64,000 nucleotides of DNA, taken from positions 23,762-87,761 of the forward strand of contig DASPIO010000028.1 in the NCBI GenBank assembly GCA_035629155.1, given 5' to 3'. Each line of letters opens with the position of its first letter. Positions within the stretch are counted from its first letter, which is position 1. The position numbers and the translations under genes are program-made. Positions 15,568 to 39,612 of the stretch are shown piece by piece. The notes under the pieces were generated by a model. That model saw only the letters and a list, made by a program, of their open reading frames with translations, had not been told where the DNA came from and searched no databases. Origin of the DNA: Azospirillum sp. GTDB taxonomy: Bacteria > Pseudomonadota > Alphaproteobacteria > Azospirillales > Azospirillaceae.

Positions 15568-15621
15568 TCCCGTGGGTGGTGGGATGCCGCGAGTTTCGCG
15601 CGCATGCGTCTTCAGGCGGGC

Positions 15622-23443: not shown

Positions 23444-24036
23444 GCGGCCTCCATCGCGGCGGCAACCGCGTCGCTCGGGCGCCAGACCACGTCCCACAGG
23501 TTGGGGTCGTACAGGGCCCCGTCGCGCAGCGGCATCGGCGGTTCCGGCCCGGTGTTCTTGCCCCGCGCGATGCGGTAGCGGTAGAGGCGGGCGCCGGGGT
23601 CGGCCGCTTCCAGATAGCCGGCGCGCGCCAGGGCGGCGATGTAGGTCTTGGTCGTGTTGATGTTGACTCGCGCCAGGCCGGCCAGCTCCTCCGACGTGAA
23701 GCCTCCGCGCAACGGGCGCATGGCCGACCACAGCCGTTCGGTGGTCGTCGGGTGTGGATCGAGCTTGCCGCCACGGAAGCGAGGGGCGCGGCGGCCGAGA
23801 TCACGCGCCAGCGTGTACACCGACGGCAGCAGTTTTCCCCGATGGCGTGGCCGCTCGGATGTGATGATGCCGTTGCCCATCAACAGCTTGAGGAACGCCT
23901 TGACCTGCCGCTCCGGCACGGCGGCGCCGGCGCGCAGCTCGTCGAAGCCGAAGGTGCGCAGCCGCCGCGCCTCGCGCCACAGCAGGGCGTGATCGACGAA
24001 GCGCATCCGCCGTTGACGCTCGTCGGGGCGGATCAT
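23440..24036 (-). CDS. Mu-like early tandem winged-HTH protein
   Basis: Two wHTH repeats (LW...RRLRTF / LWSAMRPLRGGFTSEELA); conserved position after MuB. Confidence 0.75.
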   Translation of the reverse strand: MIRPDERQRRMRFVDHALLWREARRLRTFGFDELRAGAAVPERQVKAFLKLLMGNGIITSERPRHRGKLLPSVYTLARDLGRRAPRFRGGKLDPHPTTTERLWSAMRPLRGGFTSEELAGLARVNINTTKTYIAALARAGYLEAADPGARLYRYRIARGKNTGPEPPMPLRDGALYDPNLWDVVWRPSDAVAAAMEAA

Positions 24037-24800
24037 GCGAAGCGCCTCACCGCAGGAGCCGCGCCGGTGTTGATCCGCTGGCCGGCGTAGTCGGCCAGCG
24101 ACACGCTGCGCAGCCCCTCGCCCTTGGCGAAGGTGGCGACGTTGACCAGGTTCATCGATACGCGGCGCGTCGACCCGTAGGTCTGGCCGATGAGATGTTC
24201 CAGCAGATCGTCGGCGACGGTGATGTCCGGGCAGTACAGCTTGGCCAGCTCGCGCGCGTCGTCGCCGTCGCAGGGCTGGGCGGCGACGAAGTCGAACACG
24301 CGGCTGTGGAAGCGCTCGTACCGCTGGAGCTTCTGCGGCAGCCCCTCCTCGCCGATCAGGATGATGGAGGCGGTGCCGGGCGCGGCCATGTCGTGGAAGG
24401 CGCGGACCTTGTCGATCATCTCCTTCTTGGCCAGGAAGTCGCCCTCGTCGATGACCAGGGGGCGGCGCGAGGTCTCCAGTTCCTCGGCGATCTTCTCCGC
24501 CATCTCGTTGTTCGTGGCGTGCGTGGGGAGCGCCAGACCCATGGCGTCGACGATGGCGCGCAGCATGGCGCGCGGGGTCCAGTAGTCGTTGGCCTCGACG
24601 TAGTAGGCCATGTGCTCGCTGGCGGCGATCCAGGCGGCGGCGCGGCTCTTGCCGTCGCCGCTGCGGCCATGGAAGACACCGAAGCCGGAGACGTCGGAGG
24701 AGCGCGTCTTGAGCCCGATGACCAGCTCTTCCAGCAGGGTCAGGTTGCGCAGCGGGGCCCAACGGCTGGCGGTCTTGCGGGGGGCGGCCGATTTCTGCAT
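24033..24800 (-). CDS. MuB-type AAA+ transposition ATPase
   Basis: Walker A GRSGDGKS, Walker B LVIDEGD, ILIGEE...RFHSRV; directly after the transposase. Confidence 0.93.
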   Translation of the reverse strand: MQKSAAPRKTASRWAPLRNLTLLEELVIGLKTRSSDVSGFGVFHGRSGDGKSRAAAWIAASEHMAYYVEANDYWTPRAMLRAIVDAMGLALPTHATNNEMAEKIAEELETSRRPLVIDEGDFLAKKEMIDKVRAFHDMAAPGTASIILIGEEGLPQKLQRYERFHSRVFDFVAAQPCDGDDARELAKLYCPDITVADDLLEHLIGQTYGSTRRVSMNLVNVATFAKGEGLRSVSLADYAGQRINTGAAPAVRRFA

Positions 24801-24879
24801 GGTGGGGGTCCTTCGATCAGTGCTGTTTTCCGTGCGGTCCGCGGCGTCCCATCTGGCCATGGGCGCCGCTGGCCGGATC

Positions 24880-27054
24880 TCATTCGACGGGACGGGCGAA
24901 GCGGGCCTTGCGCTCCTGGTCGCGGCGGCGGGCCTGGTACCAGGCCGACGTGCGGTTCGACGCCAGCCAGTCCAGATCGTCCTCCGACACCTCCTCGCCG
25001 GCCTCGATGCGCGCCTCGATCGCCTGGGCGCGGCGCCACCAGCGGTCCTCCGGCTTCTCGGCGGCCTGGGCCGGGGCGGCGAGGCGGCGGGCGACGTCGG
25101 CCTGCCGGACCGTGTCCGCCTCGGTGCGCGGCGCCGCGACGGCGGGCTTCGACGCGGTGATCGCGCGCTGGGCGGCCTCCAGGCCGGCGGAGGGCGGCGG
25201 CAGGGACGAGCGCGGCAGCGCGGAAACCGTGGCCGCGGGCCTGCCGATCAGCGCGTCGGCGAGCTGGTGCGGCTTGAACCCCTTGCCGGCGGCGCGGATG
25301 GCCGCCTTCTGATCGGCGATCAACTGCTGTTGCAGCGCCTTGGCCTGGGCCGACAGCTCGGCCCGCGACAGGCCGGCGCGTTCCGGGTTCTGGGCGATGC
25401 AGAGGAATTGGAACGGATCGGGGCGGTACACGAAGACCCGGTCCATCCGCTCCGGATCCAGTCGGACCTCCAGGCGGTCGCCGGTGCCGACGTAGGGGAT
25501 CAGCTCCGGCGCCCAGAAGTCGGCGTTCTCGACCCGGATTCCCTTTTTGCCCACGGTGCGGGTGCCGTCGCCGTCCGCGCAGGGCATCAGCAGCAGGTCG
25601 AGTTGGCGTTCGTCGACGACGCGCCACTCGGATCCTGCGTGCTCCTCCGCCACGGCGGCCGGGGTGCGGTCGCCCAGGCCGGCGTGCGGGCTGGTGTGAT
25701 AGCGGTTCTCGACCCACGCATCGGCCAGCATCTGCAGCTCGGCCGCCGGCAAGGCCGCCTCGAACACCTCTTCGTCCTTCTGGCCCAGGCGGGCGGCGAA
25801 GGTCTGGCGCGAGCGGATCTCCTGACGCTTGGCCACGTTGTGGCCGGTGTAGCCGGGCAGCAGCGGCATCAGCCCGTGCTGAACCGTGCCGATCGCGCGC
25901 TCGACGTGCGGCTTCTGCTCGGGCGAGTACGGTGTGCAGACGGGGTGCCGTATGGCGTCGCCAACCAGCGCGAAGAAGCGTTGCGTCTCGCGGGCCAGGA
26001 AGTCGGAGCCGTTGTCCGTCTTGATCGCCTCGGGCATGCCCCAGGCGAGGATGGCCCGGCGGATCAGCAGCAGCACGGCCGAGGCGCGCGGCACCTTGGT
26101 GACCAGGATCAGCATGCGGCGCGTGAAGACGTCGACCACGACGTAAATCGTGTGCCGCCCATCGGTCAGCATCAGGTCGGTCGGGCTGGCGTCGATCTCC
26201 CACAGCTCGTTGGGCTTGGTGATCGCCTCCGAATAGGAGCCGACGGCAACGAGGCTGCGGTTCTTCCAGGCGTCGGGGTTGGTCAGCCGCAAGTGGAGCT
26301 GCTTGTACTCCTCGCGCCATTGGTTGAGGCGGCGGCGGATCCAGCCGGCGGTGGGCATCTTCGCCTGACCGCCGCGCAGCAGCTCGAACCCCTCGCCGAA
26401 GCGCTTGACCAGGGCCGCCCGGTAGGCGTCGGCGTTCCAGTCGGGCTTGGCCAGCGCCACGGCGACCAGATAGCCCATGATGTCCTCGCGCGCCTGATCC
26501 AGCGACCCGGCACCCTTGCGGTTGCCGTAGGCGCCGGCCAGCCGGGCGGCCTCGCCGGACTCCACGGCCTCGACCCAGCGGCGAAGGGACGATGGGGACA
26601 CCGTGGGCTTGGCGGCACGGGCCCAATCCGGCACGTCCACCTCGCGGGCGTTGTAGAAGCCGGTGAACTTGTGCACCAGCCGGTCGCGGGACAGGCCGCC
26701 GGCCTGCCGCTCGAAGGCGAGGAAGGCGTTGGCGATGGTGGCCTTGGCGTCCAGCCGGGCCTTGCCGGCCTTGGTCAGCACCACCGGGGCGGCGGCGGTG
26801 CCTTTCAGCGTGGCCGCGAGCTTGGGCGGCGCCGGCGGGGTGGCCTGCTCGGCGGCGCGGCGGCCCAGTTCGATGCGGGCTTCCGGCGGAAGGGCTGTGA
26901 CGTGGTACTCGGTGCCGCCGCCGCGGCCCTGGCGGGGGCGAGCGGGCGACCAGCGTTCCTGCTGGGCCCGCATGTTGATGCCGCGCTTGGTGGACGGCAG
27001 GCCGGGGAGCGCGAAAAAGGCCAGTTCAGAAGCCGTGTACCAGCTTTCATCCAT
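24880..27054 (-). CDS. MuA-type DDE transposase
   Basis: N-terminal Mu DNA-binding domain (WYTASELA..ALPGLPST.RG), DDE motifs WEIDAS / KTDNGSDF / KPHVER, Mu C-terminal domain. Confidence 0.97.
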   Translation of the reverse strand: MDESWYTASELAFFALPGLPSTKRGINMRAQQERWSPARPRQGRGGGTEYHVTALPPEARIELGRRAAEQATPPAPPKLAATLKGTAAAPVVLTKAGKARLDAKATIANAFLAFERQAGGLSRDRLVHKFTGFYNAREVDVPDWARAAKPTVSPSSLRRWVEAVESGEAARLAGAYGNRKGAGSLDQAREDIMGYLVAVALAKPDWNADAYRAALVKRFGEGFELLRGGQAKMPTAGWIRRRLNQWREEYKQLHLRLTNPDAWKNRSLVAVGSYSEAITKPNELWEIDASPTDLMLTDGRHTIYVVVDVFTRRMLILVTKVPRASAVLLLIRRAILAWGMPEAIKTDNGSDFLARETQRFFALVGDAIRHPVCTPYSPEQKPHVERAIGTVQHGLMPLLPGYTGHNVAKRQEIRSRQTFAARLGQKDEEVFEAALPAAELQMLADAWVENRYHTSPHAGLGDRTPAAVAEEHAGSEWRVVDERQLDLLLMPCADGDGTRTVGKKGIRVENADFWAPELIPYVGTGDRLEVRLDPERMDRVFVYRPDPFQFLCIAQNPERAGLSRAELSAQAKALQQQLIADQKAAIRAAGKGFKPHQLADALIGRPAATVSALPRSSLPPPSAGLEAAQRAITASKPAVAAPRTEADTVRQADVARRLAAPAQAAEKPEDRWWRRAQAIEARIEAGEEVSEDDLDWLASNRTSAWYQARRRDQERKARFARPVE

Positions 27055-30044: not shown

Positions 30045-30217
30045 GTCAAACCATCCGTCCGTCAGCGTACAATGCGGCGATGTCCGTATGGTTTGACAGA
30101 ACGGAGTGGACGCGTCTCGAAAACCTAGGCATCACAACGCCTGCACGTCCCACTCGATCCCCCAAAATCCCACCGTATCCCGGCCCCCTATCCCGTCAAA
30201 CCATTGGTCTCTCTACA
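30045..30217 (-). repeat. Helper left end (attL): three transposase-binding motifs (30045-30054, 30088-30097, 30195-30204) and terminal CA
   Basis: GTCAAACCAT / ATGGTTTGAC / GTCAAACCAT; read inward, the end is TGTAGAGAGACCAATGGTTTGAC. Confidence 0.9.
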
Positions 30218-30955
30218 CCGGTGCGTCGATCGCCTCGGGCGTCAGGCGGAAGGTGCCGAAATGCATGGCTACGCTGGTGCGGGCACCCAGGTCCTCGTGC
30301 GCCGCCACCGCCTCCTCCGGGTTCATGTGCTGCGGCGCCATGAACCAGCGCGGCTCGTAGGCGCCGATGGGCAGCAGCGCCACGTCGATGCGCGGGAAGC
30401 GGGCGCCGATCTCCTTGAAATGCGGGCCGTAGCCGGTGTCGCCCGCGAAGTACAGCGTGCCGGCATCCGTCTCCACCACGAAGCCGCCCCACAGCGTCGT
30501 GTTGCGCCGGAAGGGCGCGCGCGCCGACCAGTGCTGCGCCGGCACGAAGGTGACGCGGCAGCCGGCCGGTCCCCGCGTGCTCTGCCACCAGTCCAGTTCC
30601 TCGACGTGCGCGAAGCCGTCGCCGTTCAGCAGCGGCCCGTTGCCCAGCCCCACCACCGCCCGCGGCCCGAAGCGCCGGGCCAGCGCCGCCAGCGACGGCC
30701 GGTCCAGGTGGTCGAAGTGCCCGTGGCTGACCAGCACGAGGTTCGGGTCCGGCAGCCGTTCCAGCGGCACGCCCGGCGGGCGGGCCCGCTTCGGCCCCAG
30801 CCGGCCGAACGGACCGGCCCGTTCGGAGAACACCGGGTCGGTGAGCAGGCGAAGGCCCGCCGCCTGCACCAGGAAGGTGGCGTGGCCGACATGGGTGACC
30901 GCCAGCGCGCCCGGTGCCGGGGGTGCCGGGACCGGCTGCGGCGGGTCCTCGACGC
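30218..30955 (-). pseudogene. Middle fragment of a host MBL-fold metallo-hydrolase (NAPE-PLD/RomA-like), cut by both elements
   Basis: VTHVGHATFLVQ, LLTDPVFSERA, SHGHFDHLD, FAGDTGY, LPIGAYEP, MHFGTF motifs. The reading frame is broken at 30217 (helper end) and at 30956 (satellite end). Confidence 0.95.
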
Positions 30956-31000
30956 TGTAGCGCGCCGAATGGTTTGAATTGGCGCGCTGGATGGTTTGAC
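30956..31000 (+). repeat. Satellite right-type end: terminal TG and two tandem ATGGTTTGA sites (30969, 30991) 22 bp apart
   Basis: Read directly from the sequence; the 22-bp period matches Mu R1/R2 spacing. Confidence 0.88.
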
Positions 31001-31053
31001 AGCGCTGACACCCCGTTTCAGGCTTACCGGGAATTGAAGAAGCCTTGGCGCTT

Positions 31054-31467
31054 CTAGGCTAGCGCCGGCAGTGTCGCATCGTCGCCCAGGTGCGCAATTT
31101 GAACATTCCTTCCCGGCGGCTTCCCCCCTGGAGGCTCGATGATAACAACGCCGTCTTTCGTATGATAATGGATAATCAGGACTGTGCGCGCACATCTGGC
31201 GGGATTGGAAAGACGGGACAGGGCTTGCCGATTGTACTTTTTCAAAAAGCGAAAGCATTCACGCATATAGATCCTGTATTCTTCCTGAATATCTTTGCGG
31301 AGCTGTTCCAATGCCGTTGGGCATGGCGGGTTGCCGCACAGATCGCTTTCCCACTTGGCAAATACATTATTCAAACGCGATGAAAGGTCGGCCGCCACTT
31401 CCCCTGACAGCAGGCGCGCGGTTACCTTCTGTGGGCGCTCCCCTGTGCCGTCATACGCGTGCTGCAT
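31054..31467 (-). CDS. Satellite cargo, hypothetical protein (137 aa)
   Basis: AGGAG upstream of TTG ATG; lower GC. The ORF track labels it '+', but the listed translation (MQHAYDG...) reads on the minus strand. Confidence 0.6.
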   Translation of the reverse strand: MQHAYDGTGERPQKVTARLLSGEVAADLSSRLNNVFAKWESDLCGNPPCPTALEQLRKDIQEEYRIYMRECFRFLKKYNRQALSRLSNPARCARTVLIIHYHTKDGVVIIEPPGGKPPGRNVQIAHLGDDATLPALA

Positions 31468-31518
31468 CAACGTCCACTCCTGATTGGTTCGTTATGCCCT
31501 CCCGCTCGACAAGAGGGC

Positions 31519-31554: not shown

Positions 31555-32079
31555 TCACTTCGGCTGCTCGCCGTTGACGAGCTGCCAATAGGCGTCCTCC
31601 ATCGCCTTGCCGATCACGCGATAGCCGGCCATGGCTTCCACGAGGTCGGGCGAGAAGTCCGGCAGCGTCGAGAAGAAGGCATTCCAGCCGTGGTTGTCGG
31701 GCAGCCCCACCACCACCTTCCGCAGCAGCTCCGTGCGAAAGCCCTTGTGCTGGCTTTCCAGCTTCTCGACTTTGGCGTTGAGTTCCTTCAGATCCTTTTT
31801 CGCCTTGGCGGCGTTGCCGTCCGACGCTTCCAGGGCGAGTTTCGCGGCCTCCTGCTTGGCCTCCGCGATCTCGCTGACGCGCTGGCCCAGCTCGGCGATG
31901 AGCTGATCGTGCTCGCTGTCCGGCAGCAGCATGAACGACAGATAACAGGTCTTTTTGACCTGTTTCCCACCCACCCAGCCGCCGCTGGCACGCTTGGCCG
32001 TTTCCGGCCAGTTGAACATGACCGGCCACACAAACGTCATTTCGGTGGGGGCTGCAAGAGTAATCTTAACCTGTTCCAT
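31555..32079 (-). CDS. Satellite tail assembly chaperone G (paralogue of 713-1207), no frameshift site
   Basis: Shared motifs TF.WPV...WPE.AK, KTC...F.L.PDSE.D.L, LLR.VVVGLPDNH.W, LP.FS.DLVEAMA, W.LVNG. Ends GAG CAG CCG AAG TGA. Confidence 0.9.
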   Translation of the reverse strand: MEQVKITLAAPTEMTFVWPVMFNWPETAKRASGGWVGGKQVKKTCYLSFMLLPDSEHDQLIAELGQRVSEIAEAKQEAAKLALEASDGNAAKAKKDLKELNAKVEKLESQHKGFRTELLRKVVVGLPDNHGWNAFFSTLPDFSPDLVEAMAGYRVIGKAMEDAYWQLVNGEQPK

Positions 32080-32102
32080 TTCCGCTCTCACTCGTTCTTT
32101 AG

Positions 32103-32540
32103 TTAATCCATCAACGAATTGAAGTATTCTGCAATGTCTCTCCATTCGCCTGTCAAAGACTGCTTTGCTGATGCGATCAGGTCATTGATGTACACCTCAA
32201 CTTCGAACCTGACATTCTTTCTTTTGTTTTGGTACAGCGCGCTCAGTCGGCGCCTCTGCCAGCGCTTTGTTAACATGGACCCGAGAAGGCGTTCGGTGTC
32301 GTCAATGTGCGCCACCAGTATTCTCTCAATGCTTGCTCGCAGATCGGAAAACAGAGGATGTCTGGCATCAAAATGTTCTGATGATCCAACCAGTTCAGAA
32401 AACGCATTGCGATTGCTGATATCCCAGCGTTCCAGCACGCTGCGGATTGCGTCAGCTCCGTTTGTCGGCATAGCGGGGCGCATTATCCGAAACTCGACGC
32501 TGTTGCGGTTCTGGATCGGTATTCGGCCGCGTGCGGGCAC
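32103..32540 (-). CDS. Satellite cargo, hypothetical protein (start uncertain)
   Basis: AT-richer ORF between the Ntn-like gene and the chaperone; no recognised family. Confidence 0.55.
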   Translation of the reverse strand: MPARGRIPIQNRNSVEFRIMRPAMPTNGADAIRSVLERWDISNRNAFSELVGSSEHFDARHPLFSDLRASIERILVAHIDDTERLLGSMLTKRWQRRRLSALYQNKRKNVRFEVEVYINDLIASAKQSLTGEWRDIAEYFNSLMD

Positions 32541-33145
32541 CCAAAGCGGTCGTAATACTCGCTATAATCAGGGTAAAATCCTGCTATTTTTTGATCGGCG
32601 CCATGCTCATTTACTTCGGTAAGATGCATGACGCCACCAATGCACATTGGTTGACTAAATTTCTCCTGTACCTTGTGCTGCCCAAGCGCCATCTTTACCA
32701 TCATGGCCTCATCGGCATGCGCGGGAAGGCGCACACCCGGCGCCATTCTGGGCGCAAGATGAATGCCCGGCTCCATCGTGGTCGCCTGGACAGGCACACC
32801 ACCGGCGCGAAGCTTGTACCTCGTGCTCTGCGGCGCCTGCTTGTTGGCGGACCAGCACATCAACGTGATTTCACCACCGGACGCTTCGAAGAATTCATCA
32901 CCGATACGCTCGGGGACGCCGCGAATAACGATATCCACATGCTCTATGCTTTCGACGCGCGCCAGTACAGGCCCAAGGACTTGAAGAAGCGCATGTGTTC
33001 CGCGCATGGAGAATGCAAATCGGCCGCTCTCAGAGACGAAACACTTTCGTTCGCAAAGGCCAACCGGCATGTTGCCCCGGTATATCATCGTGTCCGTCAG
33101 GCACAAAATGCGGTCGCTTCCCACGAATACGTTGCTGACGCTCAT
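32483..33145 (-). CDS. Proteasome-beta/HslV-like Ntn-hydrolase-fold protein
   Basis: After Met removal: Ser1, Asp17, Lys33, Gly48 and C-terminal IGGVMHLTEVNEHG, matching beta-subunit catalytic spacing. ATGA overlap with the TMP stop. Confidence 0.65.
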   Translation of the reverse strand: MSVSNVFVGSDRILCLTDTMIYRGNMPVGLCERKCFVSESGRFAFSMRGTHALLQVLGPVLARVESIEHVDIVIRGVPERIGDEFFEASGGEITLMCWSANKQAPQSTRYKLRAGGVPVQATTMEPGIHLAPRMAPGVRLPAHADEAMMVKMALGQHKVQEKFSQPMCIGGVMHLTEVNEHGADQKIAGFYPDYSEYYDRFGCPHAAEYRSRTATASSFG

Positions 33146-34530
33146 TTAATTGCCTCTTCGAACGCGGAGACGACTTCGGGGCAGGTCAAGAATTCGTCCG
33201 AGAACTCACACTCGGCCATAACCTTCTCAAGCTCGTTGGACAGATCCTTCAGATTGTCCGTCTGGGTCACGACACCGCCACTGCCGTTGGCGGGCGGGGC
33301 GTTGTCCTGCTTCGTCAGGTCGTTGAGTTCGCGTTGCAGCTCGATCCGGCGCTTGACCAGCGCCTCATGCATGGCGGGAACGCCGCTCGTTTTCTCGGGA
33401 AGGCGCCCGTACTCCCGGTCTATCCGCTCGATCTCCGCCCGCAACAGCGACGCCCTGTCCGACTCGATGCCGGCGCGAAGCGCCTTGGCCGCGTCACTGA
33501 CCTTGCCCGCAACCAGCTTGGCAATGTCGCTCCGGGCGAGGCGGTCAACGTAGGCGTCCCAGGCCACGCCAGCGTCATGCAGCGCGGCGCCCCACTCGCT
33601 GCGCATGGTCTGGGCCGCGCCACCGTACCGCTGGCGCAACGCCTCGATGGCGACGTTCAGCGCGCCGGCCTTGTTGCCGTGGTCAGCCAGCATGCGCACC
33701 TGGCGCTCTTGCTCGACCGACAGGAAGTTCAATTCCGCATCGAGTCGCTTGACGCCCTCGCCCCCCTTGCCGAGAGCGTCCCCCATCTTGGCGGCGGCGG
33801 CCGGGATCGTGTAGCCCAGCACCGCCGCAACATCCGGCGCGAGTTCCAGGATGCTGCGGAACAGCTCCGGGTCACGGAGGTCGGGGTTGCGCACCAGCTC
33901 CAAGGTGGACTGGTATGCTTCGCTGCGGGACGCCCCTGCATGGATCGCGACGTTCGCCATGTCGCGGAGCTGGCCGGCCGTGATGCCGGCCTCATTGCCC
34001 ATCGCCTTCAGGATGGACGCGAGTTCCCGCCCCTCGGCACCGATGCTCGCCATGCGCGCGGCGACGATGCCGATCGGCGCGGCGATCACGGCGGCGGCGG
34101 CGCCGATGCCCAGGATGCGGCCCGTGATGCCGGGGAACGCTTGGAGCAACTGCCCGCCCTGTTGCATCAGGACGGTGAACGGGCTGGCGCCGGACGACAG
34201 CGATGCCGCAACGTCGCTGGCCGTGTAGCTCAGCGCCTGGATCTGCTGCGTGCTGAACCTCGTCTTGGTCGCCAAGTTGTCGTTGGCGCTGGCCGCACCG
34301 CCGAACGCCGCACCGGCCCTGTCGGCGGCGCCGGCCGCAGCGCCCAGCGATTGCTTCGCCTCGTCCGCCAGTGTGTCCAGGCGGCCAAGCGCCTGTGAAA
34401 GTTGCTGGCCAGCTTCCCGGCCAGTATCACCAAGCTTGGACACCTCGCCCGTTGCCTTGCGAAGCTCCACTACGAAGTCTTCGGCTTCCGCAGTCAGCTT
34501 GAGGACGACGTGTTCTGCAACCTTGGTCAT
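33142..34530 (-). CDS. Satellite short tape measure protein (462 aa)
   Basis: QQIQALSYTASDVAASLSSGASPFTVLMQQGGQLLQAF lambda-family TMP motif; N-terminus similar to the helper TMP start at 304. Confidence 0.88.
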   Translation of the reverse strand: MTKVAEHVVLKLTAEAEDFVVELRKATGEVSKLGDTGREAGQQLSQALGRLDTLADEAKQSLGAAAGAADRAGAAFGGAASANDNLATKTRFSTQQIQALSYTASDVAASLSSGASPFTVLMQQGGQLLQAFPGITGRILGIGAAAAVIAAPIGIVAARMASIGAEGRELASILKAMGNEAGITAGQLRDMANVAIHAGASRSEAYQSTLELVRNPDLRDPELFRSILELAPDVAAVLGYTIPAAAAKMGDALGKGGEGVKRLDAELNFLSVEQERQVRMLADHGNKAGALNVAIEALRQRYGGAAQTMRSEWGAALHDAGVAWDAYVDRLARSDIAKLVAGKVSDAAKALRAGIESDRASLLRAEIERIDREYGRLPEKTSGVPAMHEALVKRRIELQRELNDLTKQDNAPPANGSGGVVTQTDNLKDLSNELEKVMAECEFSDEFLTCPEVVSAFEEAIK

Positions 34531-34647
34531 GACGATACTCGCTCGCGATTGGGCCGGCGCTGGACTGCTAGACCAGCCCAGCGCCGGCCGCACTCCGATG
34601 CGGTAAGGAGAGCCGGCCCCCGCACCGGATGCCGCTGGGATGCCCGG

Positions 34648-35568
34648 TTACAGGTACGGGGACACCACCAGTTCGGCGGTGCCGGCCCACTCGTTGGGCG
34701 CCGCGACCGTCTGTTCGTTCGGCGCCGTGCCCACCGTGACCAGCTTCATGTTGTTCTTGATGAGACGCAGCCCGTCGCCTTCCAACTCGTCCGGCACCAC
34801 GAGGATGTTGGGGGTAAGGCCCAGCTTCTTGCCGTTCTCGCCCCGGATGCTCTTGATCGCCACGCGGGCCGCCTCGTAGTTGTCGTGCGTCAGCGGCGCC
34901 TTGCTCGCATAGGCGAGCTGCCAGAGCCCGAAGCCGGCGTTGGCGCGCGCGCGGACGCCGTAGAAATACTCGTCTTTCCAGAAGACGTTGTCGTCCGTGG
35001 CGGCGTCCTGCCTCTGGAACTCGTACGGCAGCCGCTCCTGAAACACGAGGGGTTTGACCGGCTGGCCGGCGTCCATCAGGAACCACGCCGGCCCGGCCCC
35101 ATCCTGATAGTTGCTGTAGGACGTAGGCTGACAGTCGATATCCACGACATGATCAGTGGAGAAGAACGGCTTGCCGTCGTAGCACAGCTCGGTAAACCCG
35201 GCTGCCAGAAGCTCGTACACCAACTGGTCGGGGTGCTTCGCCGCGTCGGCGCCCATCTTCTCGTACAGCGGGCCGAAGACGCCGTACTGGTCATCTTCGA
35301 TGGCCGTACGGGGAACGCCAATGGTCACCTCAAACGTGCGGTTCTTGATGGTGTAGCCCGCGACTTCAAGGTTATGGATGATACGCGAGCCGATCCATTC
35401 CCGAAGCTGCGGAAGTTCCTTCAACCAACCATAAGCTTCTTCGCCCGTCGCGCTGTTTGTCTTCATGGCGATTTTCAGGTACGTGCTTTCGACGCCCTTG
35501 AAGCCCTTGTTGAAGGAGGTCTTGAACCCGGCGAACATGCCGGCGAGGTTGGGGGCGGTGATGAGCAT
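34648..35568 (-). CDS. Satellite Mu-like major capsid protein gpT (306 aa)
   Basis: MLITA...F.GF.TSF, REWIG.R..HNLE, CYDG..FF.TDH, GFG.WQLA..SKA.LT..NYEAAR; divergent paralogue of 4750-5643. Confidence 0.95.
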   Translation of the reverse strand: MLITAPNLAGMFAGFKTSFNKGFKGVESTYLKIAMKTNSATGEEAYGWLKELPQLREWIGSRIIHNLEVAGYTIKNRTFEVTIGVPRTAIEDDQYGVFGPLYEKMGADAAKHPDQLVYELLAAGFTELCYDGKPFFSTDHVVDIDCQPTSYSNYQDGAGPAWFLMDAGQPVKPLVFQERLPYEFQRQDAATDDNVFWKDEYFYGVRARANAGFGLWQLAYASKAPLTHDNYEAARVAIKSIRGENGKKLGLTPNILVVPDELEGDGLRLIKNNMKLVTVGTAPNEQTVAAPNEWAGTAELVVSPYL

Positions 35569-35577: not shown

Positions 35578-36543
35578 TTACAGGTTCTTGGCGTATTCGG
35601 CCGGATCGTGTCCGAGGGCCGCGCAGATGGCCTTCTGTTCGGCGGTAAGGCGCCCATCGGCGCCCGAGTTCGGATCGGGCGGCCGGCCCCCCGGCACCAC
35701 CTCACGGGCGAGGTTGCCGAACACGGGCGGAGCGCTGGCGGCGAACTGGTCGAAGCTGGCCGGGTTGGATCGGCAGAGGACGAGCCCCCACTCCCGCTGG
35801 GCCGGTGTCATCTTGCCGGCGCGGATCGCGGCGTCGACCTTGGCCGTCGCCTGCTCCTCCGAAAGGTTGGTGCGCATGCTGGCGAGCTGCGTCGCGGCTT
35901 CATCATAGAGATGGCGCGGCACGTAGAGGGACGGGTCGGGCACGGCGGCGGCCGTCGCCTTCTCGCTGGCGTCCTTGACCAGCTTCGTGACGGCCTCGAT
36001 CACGGCCGCTTCGTCGCTGGTGTCGGGCAGGTTCAACAGCGCGCACAAGCGCTTGATGGTTTCGGGCGACATGGGCGCTCCCATACTGGCAAGGGCCTTG
36101 AGTTCGAAGGCCGGGTTGTTGACCAGGGCGGCCCGAAGAATGCAGGTGACCGCGCCTTCCTTGGTGTGCCGGAAGACGGGGGACACGTAGCGGTACTCCC
36201 TGGCCGCGATCTTGGCAGCGGCGCGCTGCGTCCACTCCACGCGGCCCCAGATGCCATCAGGGCGGGCCTCAAAGGCCGCGATCCAGCCTGCGGCGGGCGC
36301 CTGTCCACCGTGCGGGGCGGCGAGGTCAACGGCGTGGTCGTAGTCGATCACCGGCTTGACCGGACCGGCCATCGTCAGGGACGCGGCGATCACCTGTTGC
36401 GCGGCGGCCATGCCGGGAAGGGACCAGGGGCCGCGACCGTCGCGGCCCTTGATGGTGCCGTAGGGCAGAAGCTGCACCCAATCCGGCGGTGCGGCGGGGA
36501 GTTCGGAAGAGAAGGAGGCGAGAGCGATCAGGGGATCAGTCAT
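35578..36543 (-). CDS. Satellite prohead protease/scaffold gpI; internal scaffold start at 36072
   Basis: DWVQLLPYG, PVIDYDHA, GIWGRVEWT, EYRYVSPVF, ALVNNPA. GGGAG precedes the internal ATG (MSPETIKRLCALLNL). Confidence 0.93.
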   Translation of the reverse strand: MTDPLIALASFSSELPAAPPDWVQLLPYGTIKGRDGRGPWSLPGMAAAQQVIAASLTMAGPVKPVIDYDHAVDLAAPHGGQAPAAGWIAAFEARPDGIWGRVEWTQRAAAKIAAREYRYVSPVFRHTKEGAVTCILRAALVNNPAFELKALASMGAPMSPETIKRLCALLNLPDTSDEAAVIEAVTKLVKDASEKATAAAVPDPSLYVPRHLYDEAATQLASMRTNLSEEQATAKVDAAIRAGKMTPAQREWGLVLCRSNPASFDQFAASAPPVFGNLAREVVPGGRPPDPNSGADGRLTAEQKAICAALGHDPAEYAKNL

Positions 36544-36910
36544 TGCTAATATCCCCATAGATCTCGCGGCGCACTTTCCTTACGTGGCGTTCAGTACATC
36601 CCACGGCCTGTGCGACGACACGCGTTTTCGCGCCTTCCATCGCCAATATCAGTTCCTTCTTGGAACCAGCCGGCGGCGGCAACACCGGGATGTCAATCTG
36701 TTCTCCAGGATACATATTTCCTATTATTTTGGCGTGCTCCAGTCCGACAATCTTTGCGATCTTGGATCGTTCCGAAGGGCTCGCGGCAAATTTCCTCTTA
36801 GTGCCGCCCCAAGAAAGGCCAAGTTTTATTGCCGTTTCGTATGATGTCGCCCGCGCAATACCCGCCAAGAAGGGAGGAAGCCTCTTGATCCTGTCATCAG
36901 TGATCGCCAT
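36536..36910 (-). CDS. Satellite Mor/C-family activator (paralogue of 15702-16076)
   Basis: WGGTKRK, YPGEQIDIP and GCTERHVRKV shared with the helper activator. Start placed at ATG 36910 by alignment; the track's GTG at 36952 overlaps the predicted -10 box. Confidence 0.88.
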   Translation of the reverse strand: MAITDDRIKRLPPFLAGIARATSYETAIKLGLSWGGTKRKFAASPSERSKIAKIVGLEHAKIIGNMYPGEQIDIPVLPPPAGSKKELILAMEGAKTRVVAQAVGCTERHVRKVRREIYGDISND

Positions 36911-36948
36911 AGCCTTGACGTAGCCCCCCGGCATCGGAATTGGTTCCG

Positions 36949-36995
36949 ACACTAGGGGGACGGAGAAGCGTCTATCGACGCGGAACTAGTTCCCC
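36949..36995 (-). promoter_or_regulatory. Satellite late promoter: dyad GCGGAAC-TA-GTTCCCC (36980-36995) plus -10 TAGTGT (36949-36954)
   Basis: Same dyad and 25-nt spacing as the helper late promoters. Confidence 0.7.
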
Positions 36996-37067: not shown

Positions 37068-37092
37068 CGTTTGAACGGGGCTTTGAACGCCT
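37068..37092. repeat. Tandem TTTGAACG repeat shared with helper 7369-7393
   Basis: CGTTTGAACGGGGCTTTGAACGCCT vs CGTTTGAACGGGGTTTTGAACGCCT, 24/25 identical. Confidence 0.85.
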
Positions 37093-37251
37093 CTGGGGCG
37101 TAGGGCGCACCCACGCTACCGGAAAACGCCAGAACGCACCAGCGGGCTTCCTGTGGGCTTCCAGGGCGGGGCACCCGGCAGCCACCTCCAATGCGAAACG
37201 CCCCGCCGGTAGACCCGGCGGGGCGTTGGTGTCGGCAGCGCGGCGAGGCGT

Positions 37252-37584
37252 CTACGCCTCGCGGGCGTGCCCGCCAGCGCCAACCGCGCGCTCCATGATC
37301 GTATCGACCTTCTCCGTGACTAGCTCCAGCATGGCGATCCACTGGCCCCGCTCGGTGGTGCCCATGATCATCGCTTCAATGGCGCGCAGTCCGGCCTTCA
37401 CCTGCATCAGGTCGTCGCCCAGGCTGTGTTCTGCCTCGCCAGCGACGTAGCCGGCCATGCCCCTCCTACGCGCCTTCCCCATGATGGACGTGAGTTCTTC
37501 GATCACCGCTTCTCTGACCGCGCTCCCCCGCTCCGCGCTGTTCTTGAGGAAGATCACGTTGTTTCCGGTGTTGTCGTGGGCCAT
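37252..37584 (-). CDS. Satellite early hypothetical protein (110 aa)
   Basis: AGGAGG upstream of ATG; helical ORF downstream of the Bro-like gene. Confidence 0.6.
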   Translation of the reverse strand: MAHDNTGNNVIFLKNSAERGSAVREAVIEELTSIMGKARRRGMAGYVAGEAEHSLGDDLMQVKAGLRAIEAMIMGTTERGQWIAMLELVTEKVDTIMERAVGAGGHAREA

Positions 37585-37691
37585 ATTCGAAGAGCCTCCT
37601 ATGGGTTCGCCCGGTGGCACGGTGGCGGGGCACGGTTTTCCAGGCCAAGCGCCCCGCCACCACCCGTCGCGGGCGGTGGGGTGGTAGGGAA

Positions 37692-38216
37692 TCACGATCC
37701 GGCGATGTCGAGGATGCGACGCGCCTTCTCGATGGTGACCGTCAGTTCCATGCGCACGAGGTTGGTTGTGGGGATGCCAGCCCCCGCCTCGCCCATGTCC
37801 AGGCCCGGCGGGATCGGCGGGGCCTCACCCTCCGGCCCGAAGGTCGTGTAGAGCCACCGCAGCACCCCAACGGCGTGGGCGGAGCGACTACGGGCCACCA
37901 TCACCTTCGCGGCAGGGATGGAAAGAAGGCGGGTTGCGGCGCCTCTCCCGTCGTCGATCTGGCGCAGTAGGACGGCGCCCGGCTCTCGCAGTTCCGGGAA
38001 GGTTGACGCGGCATGGTCCACCGACTGCCTTGCCCAACTGGCGCCGGCCGCCCGCATCAGGTCGTTGCCGAGGACGTAGGTTGTGCCGTCCACCGAGAAG
38101 ACGCGGACGGGGGCCGCACCACAGTAGAGGGTGCAGACAGGCGGCAGGCGGGCGTTGTCGGCTGGCACCTCGGGCCGTCCTTCGGCGGGGGCCGCTGGTG
38201 TGCGGGGATCGTCCAT
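37692..38216 (-). CDS. Bro-N / antirepressor-like protein
   Basis: VRVFSVDGTTYVLGNDLMRAAG...LLSIPAAKVMVARSRS.HAVGVLRWL pattern. Confidence 0.7.
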   Translation of the reverse strand: MDDPRTPAAPAEGRPEVPADNARLPPVCTLYCGAAPVRVFSVDGTTYVLGNDLMRAAGASWARQSVDHAASTFPELREPGAVLLRQIDDGRGAATRLLSIPAAKVMVARSRSAHAVGVLRWLYTTFGPEGEAPPIPPGLDMGEAGAGIPTTNLVRMELTVTIEKARRILDIAGS

Positions 38217-38323: not shown

Positions 38324-38560
38324 ATGATTACGGGTGACCAAATCCGGGCCGGCCGGGAACTGCTCAACTGGTCTGCCCGCGTCTTGTCTGAGCGGGCAGG
38401 CGTGGGGCCGAACACGGTGCAGCGCATGGAAAGCGCCGGAGCGGCGGTGCCATCAGGTCTTGCCGCCAACCTGGACAAGGTGCAGAAGGCATTAGAGGCG
38501 GGTGGGATTGAGTTCCGGGACGGCGGGTGGGTGCGTAGGTCACCGCAGAACGGCGCGTAA
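38324..38560 (+). CDS. XRE-family HTH regulator (satellite repressor candidate)
   Basis: MITGDQIRAGRELLNWSARVLSERAGVGPNTVQRME...LEAGGIEF, a common alphaproteobacterial XRE pattern. Confidence 0.88.
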   Translation: MITGDQIRAGRELLNWSARVLSERAGVGPNTVQRMESAGAAVPSGLAANLDKVQKALEAGGIEFRDGGWVRRSPQNGA

Positions 38561-38645
38561 GACGTGCTACCGATCACCAATGCGAGGGTGTCAACGCCAA
38601 AGTGATGCACCTTAACCACCGGCATCACTGTGGTAAGGTGCGCAC

Positions 38646-38843
38646 ATGGCTGTGAACCCGGATACCACCGTACGCAAGGTCGTCTCGCTTCCCAAAGAGT
38701 TGTGGGAAGAGGTGAGCGACTATCGCTTTGATAACAGATTGGGCACGGAAGCGGACGCGCTTCGGCGTCTGATCCAACTTGGATTGGATGCCGCCAAGGC
38801 CAGTCCCCGCGATCCTGGCCGCGCACCGTCGCGGAAGCGCTAG
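38646..38843 (+). CDS. Ribbon-helix-helix (CopG/Arc-like) protein
   Basis: RKVVSLPKELWEEVSDYRF...TEADALRRLIQLGL. Confidence 0.8.
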   Translation: MAVNPDTTVRKVVSLPKELWEEVSDYRFDNRLGTEADALRRLIQLGLDAAKASPRDPGRAPSRKR

Positions 38844-39291
38844 TCGCTCCCCAAAGCAAGCGAGGCGGGACCGCGCCAGCGGCCCCGCCTCGTAGTGTCT
38901 GGCACCCATGCGGAGGGTTGGGAGACTGGCGTCAACGGACGCCACGCCCCACCACGTTGCCACACCAGCGCCCGCCCGATGCCTCGGAACGAGTTCCGCT
39001 TGGTGGGAGCCGGCGGCAGGCTCCATCTACAACCGGCGCGCGATCCCGAGACGGCGGGCCGGAACCGGAACCCCTTCCCACTTCCGGACGGATCTTTCAT
39101 CGCGCGATGGTTGTGACGGAAACGCAAGCCACTGCAATAACAAGCTTTTTTGAACTGTAGCCTTCCCAGTTTGACTGGAAACGCTAGCTTCCACTTCCGT
39201 CCCACTTCCGTAGCCGAACCGGGACCCGGCCTACGCGCCACATCCCTTGCAAATCTTGGCTTTAGCTGCGTTTTAGTGCCGCCTCCGTTCA

Positions 39292-39462
39292 GTCAATCCA
39301 TACGTCTCCCGGACACTTTCGCGCGTTGCGCCGCATGGTTTGGCGGAAAATTCCGGTTGTGCCCCTAACCCTATGATCCAATGCGCCGTTCATCCCATCT
39401 GATCCCCGAAAATCCCACGGTATCCCGGCCCCCTATCCTGTCAAACCATTGGTCTCTCCACA
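39292..39462 (-). repeat. Satellite left-type end: three transposase-type sites (39292, 39335, 39440) and terminal CA
   Basis: GTCAATCCAT / ATGGTTTGGC / GTCAAACCAT in the same orientations as the helper, spacings 43 and 105 bp vs 43 and 107 bp. Last 62 bp are 58/62 identical to 30156-30217. Confidence 0.92.
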
Positions 39463-39612
39463 GACGCGCTCCGGCCAAGGCGCCCAGCCGCGGTGCGACC
39501 AGAAACGCAGCAGGTCGCCCGGGCCCTTGTCGGTCGACTGGAAATGCGGCGGGTTGAAGAACCGCCGTCCGTCGCAATGGTCGGAAACCGGGAAGCGCGC
39601 GATGCGGGCCAT
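39463..39612 (-). pseudogene. N-terminal fragment of the interrupted MBL-fold hydrolase
   Basis: MARIARFPVSDHCDGRRFFNP...DLLRFW...WPERV, the usual N-terminus of this family; joins in frame to 30950. Confidence 0.92.

What the first reader, a model, noticed from the sequence alone, without database searches (positions are those of the whole stretch)
36536..36995. Satellite late operon wired to the helper's activator, and led by its own activator with an identical recognition helix
Seen: the dyad CGGAAC-NN-GTTCC with a TAnnnT box 24-25 nt downstream lies before helper lysis (15685), helper gpI (7284) and the satellite operon (36980). The first satellite gene is a Mor/C paralogue whose HTH segment GCTERHVRKV is identical to the helper's, while the rest has diverged. 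In the helper the activator is upstream of, not under, these promoters. Inferred: the helper activator triggers the satellite, then satellite Mor either amplifies its own operon (feedback, reminiscent of P4 Delta/P2 Ogr) or competes at helper late promoters.
Basis: partly seen in the sequence, partly recalled or inferred. Interest (0 to 1): 0.85.

Follow-up and report, generated by a model that had tools for sequence, protein, structure and literature searches.

The report
Mini-Mu satellite sharing helper's activator sites
Next to a Mu-like prophage sits an 8.5-kb transposable passenger that has no transposase, terminase, portal or tail genes, copies the prophage's end sequence and late-promoter activator sites, and carries its own activator and capsid genes, which looks like the first parasite ("satellite") family of transposable phages.

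Summary
GGAACNNGTTCC occurs exactly 5 times (0.04 expected). All five sites are intergenic, and each has a -10-like xAxxxT hexamer 33-34 nt from the dyad centre on the gene strand. That puts the dyad near -45, as at Mu Mor/C promoters.

The first gene after the 36982 dyad is a Mor/C-family activator, 41% identical to the helper's. It shares three motifs with the helper that are rare in the family: WGGTKRK, YPGEQxDxP and GCTERHVRKV.

The "satellite" label is now backed by hard features:
- The element spans 30956-39462 (8,507 bp) with TG...CA ends.
- It has a perfect 5-bp target duplication (GACGC).
- A related strain shows the empty site.
- Its end is 90% identical over 70 nt to the helper's own left end (30148-30217).

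It lacks transposase, terminase, portal, tail and lysis genes. It keeps Mor, protease/scaffold, major capsid, a short tape-measure-like gene and a chaperone-like gene, all under purifying selection.

All eight closest capsid relatives examined sit in similar 7-9-kb mini-Mu elements, most with a dyad-Mor-I-T operon.

Helper-triggered activation followed by self-amplification (P4 delta/P2 Ogr logic) is the best reading. It rests on sequence only, not on binding or expression data.

The parts
30951..30955 (.). Target-site duplication GACGC, left copy
   Evidence: Identical 5-mer at 39463-39467. Chance of identity is about 0.002.
30956..31005 (+). Satellite attR-like end. It starts TGTAG and holds two ATGGTTTGA repeats 22 nt apart (30969, 30991).
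   Evidence: Homology with L080 stops exactly at 30956.
31054..31470 (-). Last late-operon ORF (137-138 aa), no family hit
31555..32145 (-). Protein 41% identical to helper ORF 713-1261, which occupies the tail-assembly-chaperone position
32483..33145 (-). 220-aa protein of unknown function. It is conserved after the tape-measure-like gene in L080 and L082, and has low GC.
   Evidence: The AF2 model was unusable.
33142..34593 (-). Short tape-measure-like protein (462-483 aa)
   Evidence: PF06791 E 3.8e-24, PHROG 24. dN/dS 0.26 against L080.
34648..35568 (-). Major head subunit gpT, 50% identical to the helper's gpT
   Evidence: PF10124 E 4.9e-113
35578..36558 (-). gpI protease/scaffold, 41% identical to the helper's and about 50 aa shorter in the scaffold part. 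The likely start ATG at 36543 overlaps the Mor stop (ATGACTGA).
   Evidence: PF10123 E 2.7e-71
36536..36910 (-). Satellite Mor/C-family activator (124 aa)
36934..36949 (-). Second operator TCGGAACCAATTCCGA, 46 nt downstream of the first. It abuts the -10 box and covers the predicted +1.
   Evidence: L080 has the same arrangement at 47 nt.
36949..36954 (-). -10 hexamer TAGTGT. Predicted start near 36942.
36980..36995 (-). Main operator GGGGAACTAGTTCCGC, centre about -45
37068..37088 (-). Conserved block GTTCAAAGCCCCGTTCAAACG, shared with the helper (7369-7389) and with the satellite relatives
37197..37227 (-). 13-bp GC hairpin between the early genes and the late promoter. The same stem sequence is present in L080.
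37252..38216 (-). Two early genes (174 aa at 37692-38216 and 110 aa at 37252-37584), no family hit
   Evidence: dN/dS 0.28 for the 174-aa gene.
38324..38843 (+). XRE-type HTH (38324-38560) and a small 65-aa gene (38646-38843). The ribbon-helix-helix label for the small gene comes from reading its sequence; no family matched it. Both point towards the attL-like end, as Mu c does.
   Evidence: PF01381 E 7e-6 for the XRE gene. No Pfam hit for the 65-aa gene..
38954..38999 (-). Fifth exact operator GCGGAACTCGTTCCGA (38984-38999) with CAACGT at +33 (38954-38959). It would fire antisense to the HTH genes.
   Evidence: A hairpin lies at 38861-38892.
39290..39462 (+). Satellite attL-like end, ending ...CCACA. 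GTCAAACCAT-type repeats lie at 39292 and 39440. The last 70 nt are 90% identical to the helper's end.
39463..39467 (.). Target-site duplication GACGC, right copy
   Evidence: RNA contigs diverge at 39466/39467.
30148..30217 (+). Helper prophage left-end terminus (...TCTCTACA)
   Evidence: The terminal 23 nt also begin an IMG/VR Mu-like contig.
15702..16076 (-). Helper Mor/C-family activator. Its start overlaps the GemA stop.
15592..15700 (-). Helper lysis promoter region. It holds two operators (15685-15700 and 15622-15637) with TACCCT and GAAACT at +34 and +33.
7254..7299 (-). Helper head (gpI) promoter: operator GCGGAACCCGTTCCGC and TAATCT
24033..27054 (-). Helper transposase A (24880-27054) and B (24033-24860), the functions the satellite lacks
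   Evidence: Precomputed Pfam families on the L001 gene calls: A has HTH_Tnp_Mu_1, rve and Mu-transpos_C; B has AAA_22

Best explanation
Window 30956-39462 is an 8,507-bp non-autonomous Mu-type transposable element, a natural mini-Mu. It lives as a satellite of the adjacent Mu-like prophage, which runs from beyond position 1 to 30217 on the minus strand.

Shown:
- The element's ends and target duplication.
- An empty site in a related strain.
- A helper-like end sequence.
- The absence of transposase, packaging, tail and lysis genes.
- Intact genes under purifying selection for an activator, protease/scaffold, major capsid protein and a short tape-measure-like protein.
- Five copies of one 16-bp operator, each about 45 bp upstream of a -10-like box with no -35. 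Three lie at helper late promoters and two in the satellite.

Inferred mechanism:
1. On induction, the helper expresses its Mor-type activator at the end of its early operon.
2. That protein binds the operators at the helper's lysis and head promoters. It also binds the satellite operator at 36980-36995, which is shielded from upstream transcription by a strong hairpin.
3. The first product of that satellite operon is the satellite's own Mor. Its DNA-contacting segments match the helper's, so it reinforces its own operon, as P4 delta does.
4. Satellite Mor may then damp the operon through the second operator, which sits on the -10/+1 region.
5. The operon supplies a satellite scaffold/protease, capsid protein and short tape measure.
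6. The helper supplies transposase, terminase, portal, tails and lysis. It is presumed to recognise the copied end for transposition and for packaging.
7. A second operator near the attL-like end (38984-38999) may let the activator drive transcription antisense to the satellite's HTH genes.
For: Operator statistics and geometry:
- 5 exact sites against 0.04 expected.
- All are intergenic, with xAxxxT at +33/+34 on the gene strand, p about 2.6e-7.
- The geometry matches published Mor/C promoters. These have two 5-bp inverted repeats in a 16-bp element centred at -43.5, and a -10 without a -35 (abstracts of PMC4390567 and PMC2582627).

Relatives:
- Phages L077 and L079 have the same recognition helix. 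They carry TCGGAAC...TCCGA-type dyads (one arm imperfect in L079), each with a -10-like box at +33: after Mor in both, and before the head gene that follows F in L077.
- L080, the closest satellite relative, has a different helix (GCSERYVCRV) and a different dyad (CTGAAC-N-GTTCAG). It keeps the same two-site layout 47 nt apart, with a -10 at +33.
- L090 and L091 have GGTGAC-N4-GTCACC with a -10 at +33/+32 before Mor-I-T.

Links to the helper:
- The satellite promoter region aligns with the helper gpI promoter over about 200 nt.
- Satellite Mor shares WGGTKRK, YPGEQxDxP and GCTERHVRKV with the helper protein. These occur in 0, 0 and 1 of 149 family representatives. Its N-half is closest to other, satellite-type proteins.
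- The HTH and a beta-strand linker are the DNA-contacting parts in Mor/C-RNAP structures (bioRxiv 10.1101/2025.05.02.651988). Equating YPGEQxDxP with that linker is by position only.

Satellite status:
- Target duplication, ends and empty site.
- attL 90% identical over 70 nt, against 78% for a related phage.
- Gene content.
- dN/dS of 0.17-0.41 against L080.
- All 8 closest gpT relatives examined sit in 7-9-kb mini-elements without portal, terminase or tails.
Against: - There are no binding, reporter or transcription-start data. The only RNA evidence is assembled contigs with low, even cover of both elements, so no start site can be mapped.
- The recognition helix is close to the family consensus.
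- L080's dyads do not match the Mu-like phage found in the same sample (L076: CCGGA-N6-TCCGG). The helper-matching rule is therefore shown for one pair only.
- Relatives with their own transposase have the same dyad-Mor layout. They could start the loop by read-through from their early operon, so a helper trigger is not required by the architecture.
- The helper's right end is outside the window, so mimicry of both ends is untested.
- The 2.9-fold read depth extends 229-264 nt beyond the element's ends. It is therefore not clean evidence of transposed copies.
- Packaging, small capsids and tail-length effects are pure inference.
Confidence: 0.6

Rival explanations
1. The loop is self-contained. 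The operator upstream of satellite Mor is used only by satellite Mor. The first molecules come from leaky read-through of the satellite's early operon. The match to the helper's operators reflects shared ancestry or a recombined promoter segment, not functional cross-talk.
For: Mini-Mu relatives with their own early genes have the same dyad-Mor-I-T layout directly after the early operon. L080's dyads differ from those of the Mu-like phage in its sample. The satellite promoter region looks like a recombined copy of a helper-type gpI promoter.
Against: A 13-bp GC hairpin separates the early genes from the promoter. The 12-bp core is identical to the helper's three sites, while the closest satellite relative has a different core. 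The Mor motifs match the helper specifically. With identical operators and contact motifs, cross-activation would be hard to avoid.
Confidence: 0.2
2. The element is an interference or defence island. It uses the incoming or induced phage's late activator as a sensor. It then floods the cell with a mismatched scaffold/protease, capsid protein and short tape measure, which poison helper assembly. The element itself may or may not be transferred.
For: The module wired to the operator encodes assembly proteins 41-50% identical to the helper's. It also encodes a truncated tape-measure-like protein and a chaperone-like protein. Known satellites interfere with their helpers (own knowledge).
Against: There were no significant hits to known defence families; the only PADLOC match was a 12.9-bit JetA hit at E 0.008 on sat196. 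The element keeps transposon ends, a target duplication and a helper-like end, which suggests ongoing mobility. This reading is compatible with satellite biology rather than an alternative to it.
Confidence: 0.12
3. The element is a decaying remnant of a second Mu-like prophage. The dyad and the Mor gene are leftovers without current function.
For: The gene order resembles a Mu genome with large deletions.
Against: All ORFs are intact and dN/dS is 0.17-0.41 against L080. The Mor-gpI junction is compact and overlapping. The same reduced architecture recurs in at least nine independent loci, with inverted-repeat ends where checked. The target duplication is perfect.
Confidence: 0.03
4. The dyad is bound by a different protein, for example the XRE or small HTH-region protein or a host factor, and acts as a repressor operator rather than an activator site.
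For: The attL-proximal regions of the window and of L080 hold other GGAAC-type palindromes. A second site overlaps the -10/+1.
Against: The fixed distance to a -10-like box, the missing -35, and the position directly after the Mor gene and before lysis and head genes all match Mor/C promoters. This holds in several phages that have no satellite genes.
Confidence: 0.05

Closest known systems
Satellite P4 with helper P2: Ogr/delta trans-activation of the sid-delta-psu operon
   Same: The helper's late activator turns on the satellite's late operon. That operon encodes a homologous activator, and the operon also carries capsid-remodelling functions (PMC7552001). The layout of operator, own activator and morphogenesis genes is the same logic.
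   Different: The activators here are Mor/C-family HTH proteins, not the Ogr/delta family. This satellite brings its own major capsid protein and protease/scaffold rather than an external scaffold. No integrase or primase family was found among its scanned ORFs. It is bounded by transposon ends with a 5-bp duplication.
Phage Mu Mor/C cascade and late promoters Plys, PI, PP, Pmom
   Same: Same protein family (PHROG 836; best solved-structure match 1RR7). A dyad in a 16-bp element lies about 44-45 bp upstream, and there is a -10 without a -35. Promoters sit before the lysis and gpI genes.
   Different: The helper has one activator in the window, at the mor position, apparently acting directly on late promoters. 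In the satellite the activator gene sits under its own operator. The operator sequence, (G/T)CGGAAC-N2-GTTCCG, was derived from this window and its relatives.
Laboratory mini-Mu / Mud elements
   Same: Internally deleted Mu derivatives keep the ends. Those that retain the repressor, A and B replicate on induction (PMC10052514). Derivatives without A/B being mobilised and packaged by a helper Mu is my own knowledge. The window element has ends but no A/B. Relatives L003, L028, L082, L084 and L089-L091 keep c, A and B.
   Different: These elements are natural, recurrent and under selection. They carry a capsid module, their own regulator and in some cases a tape-measure-like gene.
Capsid-forming PICIs
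   Same: These are small chromosomal elements that encode their own capsid proteins and rely on a helper for the rest (own knowledge; the four families searched by SatelliteFinder are listed in PMC10085698).
   Different: cf-PICIs integrate with an integrase and encode portal, head-tail connectors and small terminase. This element has none of those and moves, or moved, by Mu-type transposition.

Membership tests
Mor/C family of phage transcription activators | Profile or sequence similarity to Mor/C proteins | tested here: met
   PHROG 836 'late transcriptional activator': satellite E 1.6e-12, helper E 1.8e-19. Pfam Mor PF08765 matches the helper only weakly (E 0.002, below the cut-off) and does not match the satellite protein. 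A family profile's best PDB match is Mu Mor 1RR7, at E 0.054.
Mor/C family of phage transcription activators | About 120-140 aa, with an N-terminal dimerisation domain, a beta-strand linker and a C-terminal HTH | tested here: inconclusive
   Both proteins are 124 aa. The alignment to 1RR7 places GCTERHVRKV in the HTH. The linker assignment (YPGEQxDxP) is by position only. No reliable structure was made.
Mor/C family of phage transcription activators | Binds a dyad centred near -43.5 of promoters that have a -10 but no -35 | not testable with these tools
   The sequence geometry fits: centre about -45, xAxxxT at +33/+34 for 5 of 5 sites. Binding needs EMSA or footprinting.
Mu-type (DDE, 5-bp duplication) transposable element | 5'-TG...CA-3' termini flanked by a 5-bp target duplication | tested here: met
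   TGTAG at 30956 and CCACA at 39462, with GACGC on both sides. A related strain shows the empty site.
Mu-type (DDE, 5-bp duplication) transposable element | Several transposase-binding repeats at both ends, in inverted orientation | tested here: met
   GTCAAACCAT-type repeats lie at 39292 and 39440. Inverted copies lie at 30969 and 30991. The helper end has the same motif and spacing.
Mu-type (DDE, 5-bp duplication) transposable element | Encodes MuA-type transposase and MuB | tested here: not met
   No such gene was found among the ORFs of 30956-39462 scanned. The helper and most relatives have them. The element is therefore non-autonomous.
Phage satellite | A discrete mobile element that lacks essential virion or replication genes | tested here: met
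   No terminase, portal, F, tail, lysis or transposase genes.
Phage satellite | Cis and regulatory elements matched to a specific helper | tested here: met
   attL terminus 90% identical to the helper's. Identical operator core at helper and satellite promoters. Shared Mor contact motifs.
Phage satellite | Mobilised and packaged by the helper | not testable with these tools
   Only assembled contigs of the runs are available. The 2.9-fold depth is ambiguous.
P4-like satellites | Integrase, alpha primase/helicase, Sid, Psu and a delta (Ogr-type) activator | tested here: not met
   None of these families appeared in the Pfam or PHROG scans of the element's ORFs. The resemblance is in regulatory logic only.
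Known anti-phage defence systems (PADLOC) | A match to a defence-system protein model | tested here: not met
   The only hit was a 12.9-bit JetA match at E 0.008.

The most novel reading that the evidence does not exclude
This may be the first recognised family of satellites of transposable (Mu-like) phages. They are natural mini-Mu elements of 7-9 kb. They replicate by transposition, either with their own A/B or, as here, with the helper's through a copied end. They hook their late operon to the helper's Mor-type activator through matching operators and a specificity-matched activator of their own. They bring their own scaffold/protease, capsid protein and sometimes a short tape measure, to build particles sized for their small genome.
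Probability: 0.45. Interest if true: 0.9.

Novelty: new variant of a known kind. Interest (0 to 1): 0.85.

Why it matters
Phage satellites described so far (P4-like, PICI, cf-PICI, PLE) integrate with integrases or replicate as plasmids. Three searches of the held library found no paper describing a satellite of a transposable phage.

If this reading holds, three things follow:
- Molecular piracy would extend to Mu-type phages. It would work by a distinct route: copying the helper's transposon end, which in Mu also carries the packaging site (own knowledge), and copying its late-promoter operators.
- Mor/C specificity would become testable. There are now several natural pairs of recognition helix and operator: TERHVRK with GGAAC, SERYVCR with TGAAC, and HIRTVYR or TRRTVIR with GTGAC.
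- There would be a natural test bed for capsid-size control, and possibly tail-length control, by a satellite-encoded capsid protein, scaffold and tape measure.

The many mini-Mu relatives found in genomes and metagenomes suggest that such elements are currently filed as 'Mu-like prophage remnants'.

Tried and rejected
- tRNA or integrase-type boundaries. There are no tRNAs. The 70-nt 'direct repeat' that looked like att sites is the helper's own left end paired with the satellite's attL-like end.
- Close homologues of satellite Mor by the word-index search: only itself.
- GGAACNNGTTCC in 73 related loci: none, so each lineage has its own operator.
- Known defence families: no significant hit.
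- Read depth as proof of transposition. The high-depth contig (30727-39726) overruns the element's ends, so it is ambiguous.
- Transcription start from RNA runs. Only contigs are available and cover is even and low.
- Fetching the helper's right end and tape measure. One look-up found no record and one returned only a 984-nt contig.
- The AF2 model of the 220-aa protein had pLDDT 37 and was not used.
- The CCCGTTYRAACGGG palindrome scan alone was not significant.
- The looser CGGA-N6-TCCG pattern is only weakly enriched, 8 against 3.5 expected.
Full report
**What is in the window**

Positions 1 to 30217 hold most of a Mu-like prophage on the minus strand.
- Early and regulatory genes: a c-type repressor (28107-28787, plus strand), Ner (HTH_35), transposase A (24880-27054), B (24033-24860) and GemA.
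- Then a 124-aa Mor/C-family protein (15702-16076), whose start overlaps the GemA stop.
- Lysis and packaging genes: a GH108 endolysin (14980-15567), large terminase, portal and F.
- Head and neck genes: gpI (6074-7213), gpT (4750-5835), a gp36-like adaptor, a tail completion protein and a tail terminator.
- Probable major tail and chaperone genes. The prophage continues beyond position 1.

These assignments rest.

**The observation**

GGAACNNGTTCC occurs exactly five times, against 0.04 expected. The sites are at 7286, 15624, 15687, 36982 and 38986.
- All are intergenic.
- Read on the minus strand, each has an xAxxxT hexamer starting 33 or 34 nt from the dyad centre: TAATCT, GAAACT, TACCCT, TAGTGT and CAACGT.
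- Such a hexamer is found at 4.8% of random positions, so five out of five has a probability of about 2.6e-7.

With the hexamer at -12 to -7, the dyad centre lies near -45. There is no -35-like hexamer. Published work on Mu describes exactly this layout:
- Mor binds two 5-bp inverted repeats in a 16-bp element centred at -43.5 (PMC4390567 abstract).

In the 16-bp frame the sites read GCGGA-N6-TCCGC and near variants. The one-mismatch copy at 36936 becomes a perfect TCGGA-ACCAAT-TCCGA.

Corrections:
- The spacing is off by 1-2 nt.
- Two more exact sites exist.
- The satellite has a second site.

**The activators**

The ORF after the 36982 dyad most likely starts at ATG 36910, which gives 124 aa.
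- Both proteins match PHROG 836, 'late transcriptional activator'. They are 41% identical to each other.
- A profile of 52 family members finds Mu Mor (1RR7) as the best solved structure. The match is weak (E 0.054). It places GCTERHVRKV in the turn and second helix of the HTH.
- Among 149 representatives from a search of 1.8 billion proteins, the segment is close to the consensus G-C-T-E-R-[YH]-V-R-[RKM]-V.

Even so:
- Only one representative has the exact 10-mer.
- None has the two other blocks shared by satellite and helper, WGGTKRK and YPGEQxDxP.

A recent structural preprint reports that Mor/C proteins contact DNA through the HTH, an antiparallel beta-strand linker and a loop before helix 3 (bioRxiv 10.1101/2025.05.02.651988). 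The three shared blocks sit at the corresponding places by position, but this was not tested structurally.

The satellite protein's N-terminal half is closest to other proteins: 60% and 52% to P0005 and P0004, 44% to the L080 orthologue and 39% to the helper. Those relatives carry CSERYV-type helices. The satellite activator therefore combines a satellite-type N-domain with helper-type DNA-contact motifs.

**Comparative support for the operator**

Phages related to the helper have the same GemA-Mor-endolysin order.
- L077 and L079 have the identical recognition helix. Right after the Mor stop they carry TCGGAACCTCCTCCGA and TCGGAACTAAAACCGA, with GACTGT or GACTAT at +33.
- L077 has a further TCGGAACCCCCTCCGA before the head gene that follows F.
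- L076 has the helix GTTERHVRRV and the dyad CCGGA-N6-TCCGG.

In the closest satellite relative, L080, the Mor helix is GCSERYVCRV.
- Its promoter has TCCCTGAAC-T-GTTCAGGGA, CATTGT at +33, and a second dyad (GTGAACAGTTCA) 47 nt downstream.
- The window has the same two-site layout at 46 nt.

L090 and L091 have GGTGAC-N4-GTCACC with TACCGT or TACGCT at +33/+32, directly before Mor-I-T.

Helix and operator thus change together across lineages while the geometry stays fixed.

**The island is a mobile element matched to the helper**

The 70-nt direct repeat found first (30148-30217 and 39393-39462, 90% identical) is not a pair of att sites.
- The left copy ends ...GGTCTCTCTACA at 30217 and is the helper's own left terminus.
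- The right copy ends ...GGTCTCTCCACA at 39462 and is the satellite's corresponding end.

The satellite's other end starts TGTAGCGCGCCGAATGGTTTGA at 30956, which is the inverted form of the same terminal site.

GACGC flanks the element on both sides, at 30951-30955 and 39463-39467. This is the 5-bp duplication typical of Mu transposition.

Further points on the boundaries:
- A contig from metatranscriptome run X3 joins a variant of the left flank directly to 39467 onwards. That is an empty site in a related strain.
- Homology with L080 stops at exactly 30956.
- Repeats of GTCAAACCAT type occur at the same spacing in the helper and satellite ends.
- A related Mu-like phage in IMG/VR shares the terminal 23 nt. 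It is only 78% identical to the helper over 72 nt. The satellite's 90% is therefore closer than phage relatives are to each other.

**Content of the 8,507-bp element (30956-39462)**

In order from the attL-like end:
- an XRE-type HTH gene and a small 65-aa gene that I read as ribbon-helix-helix from its sequence (no family matched it); both point outwards;
- two early genes of unknown function;
- a strong hairpin;
- the operator and promoter;
- Mor, then gpI (its start overlaps the Mor stop) and gpT;
- a 462-483-aa tape-measure-like protein;
- a conserved 220-aa protein;
- a protein 41% identical to the helper ORF at the tail-chaperone position;
- a last small ORF.

These rest.

There is no transposase, B, terminase, portal, F, tail or lysis gene. 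Against L080 the genes show dN/dS of 0.17-0.41.

**A family of such elements**

In a survey of 73 genomic loci that encode gpT relatives, most had portal-F-I-T. A few had I-T with no portal or F.

The closest gpT relatives, at 55-72% identity, all lie in small elements:

| Locus | Gene content |
|---|---|
| L080 | Same layout as the window; no A/B |
| L003, L084, L089, L090, L091 | c, A, B, GemA, I, T; a Mor-type gene recognised in L003, L090, L091 and probably L089 |
| L082 | c, A, B, GemA, T, tape-measure-like, 228-aa protein |

- They are flanked by host genes on both sides where the contig allows (L003, L082, L091). Terminal inverted repeats were found in L003 and L082.
- L028, L010 and L006 are further examples.
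- Full phages start at about 55% identity or lower.

The reduced architecture is therefore a lineage, not random decay.

**Mechanism**

*Shown:* the operators, their geometry, the gene order, the ends and the matches to the helper.

*Inferred:*
1. The helper's Mor, made at the end of its early operon, activates its own late promoters and the satellite promoter at 36980-36995.
2. Satellite Mor, the first product, has matching contact motifs and feeds back on the same operator.
3. The second operator, which abuts the -10 and covers +1, could limit the loop.
4. The operator at 38984-38999 would direct transcription antisense to the satellite's HTH genes and towards its early genes. A hairpin at 38861-38892 lies in between.
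5. The helper would supply transposase and B, acting on the copied end, together with terminase, portal, tails and lysis.

An 8.5-kb genome with its own scaffold/protease (about 50 aa shorter in the scaffold part) and capsid protein suggests smaller heads. That is speculation.

The logic parallels P4. There, P2 Ogr trans-activates P4, and P4 then expresses delta (an Ogr homologue), psu and sid (PMC7552001).

**Weak points**

- There are no functional data.
- One helper-satellite pair carries the whole 'matching' argument. L080's operators do not match the Mu-like phage seen in its sample.
- Relatives with their own early operon could prime the loop themselves.
- The helper's right end is unseen.
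- In DNA run X1 the contig 30727-39726 has depth 469, against 141-186 for the helper and both flanks. Its boundaries lie outside the element, and several alternative junctions exist (31074, 39648, 39682). It may reflect strain mixtures rather than transposed copies.

**Novelty**

Three searches of the held library for satellites of Mu-like or transposable phages found no paper describing such an element. The regulatory logic is known from P4. The vehicle is not: a natural mini-Mu with a copied helper end, matched operators and its own capsid module.

Noticed in passing
window 37068-37088 and 7369-7389; L080 1851-1885; L003 about 8570-8600; L082 9643-9665; L084 5117-5143: A conserved block GTTCAAArCCCCGTTCAAACG (with GCAATCGG in the window copies) lies upstream of the head promoter in the helper and in every satellite relative checked. 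The roughly 100-nt segment that holds it is inverted in the window relative to L080. It sits where Mu's strong gyrase site maps (near genes G and I, PMC10052514). That is a lead by position only.
   Followed up: partly
window 30727-39726: In DNA run X1 this stretch is one contig at depth 469, while the helper and both flanks are at 141-186. The contig overruns the satellite ends by 229 and 264 nt. Alternative junctions exist at 31074 (depth 90, also seen in RNA), 39648 and 39682. This could be strain mixture, extra copies or variants; it was not resolved.
   Followed up: partly
window 30217-30956: The helper's left end and the satellite's attR-like end are only 738 bp apart and point the same way. 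This is unexpected if Mu-type cis-immunity, which covers regions just outside Mu ends (PMC7350765 abstract), applies here.
   Followed up: no
window 30213-30217: The stop codon of the MBL-fold gene (30213-30869, minus strand) is supplied by the helper's terminal TGTAG. The prophage therefore inserted into the 3' end of that gene.
   Followed up: no
window 38984-38999, 38954-38959 and 38861-38892: The fifth exact operator has CAACGT at +33 on the minus strand. It would fire antisense to the satellite's XRE and small (RHH-like) genes. A 14-bp hairpin follows about 60 nt downstream, so the product could be a short RNA or a read-through transcript.
   Followed up: partly
window 31555-32145 versus 713-1261 and 330-1139: A satellite protein is 41% identical to the helper ORF that lies between the probable major tail gene and the start of the tape measure. 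That helper ORF is overlapped by an alternative-frame ORF with a weak DUF1799 match, which resembles a frameshifted tail chaperone. The satellite may therefore carry a tape measure together with its chaperone.
   Followed up: partly
window 32100-33150: GC falls to 0.53 here, against 0.65-0.70 around it. The 220-aa gene is conserved in L080 and L082 but matches no family. Its single-sequence structure model was useless (pLDDT 37).
   Followed up: partly
L080 1-526: The region between the RHH-like gene and the contig start holds an array of long palindromes, GGAACTGGGAC...GTCCCAGTTC. They differ from L080's late-promoter dyad and may be operators for another protein.
   Followed up: no
L003, L028, L082/L083, L084, L089, L090, L091: These are natural mini-Mu elements of about 7-9 kb with c, A, B, GemA and gpT, and mostly gpI and a Mor-type gene. 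None has portal, terminase or tail genes. Host genes flank L003, L082 and L091 on both sides. L003 and L082 have repeated inverted terminal sites.
   Followed up: partly
window 17657-17670 and 29285-29298: Two nearly identical CGGAAGAC(G/C)GTCCG palindromes lie in the helper, one in the early region and one near its left end. They fit CGGA-N6-TCCG but not the GGAAC core, and may be chance (8 found against 3.5 expected).
   Followed up: no
window 33360-36010 in run X4: A 2024 soil metagenome holds a 95-99% variant of the I, T and tape-measure-like genes. It shows no cover of the Mor, promoter or early-gene region at 95% likeness or above. Depth is low, so this is not firm. It could mean the regulatory module is exchanged between relatives.
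   Followed up: no
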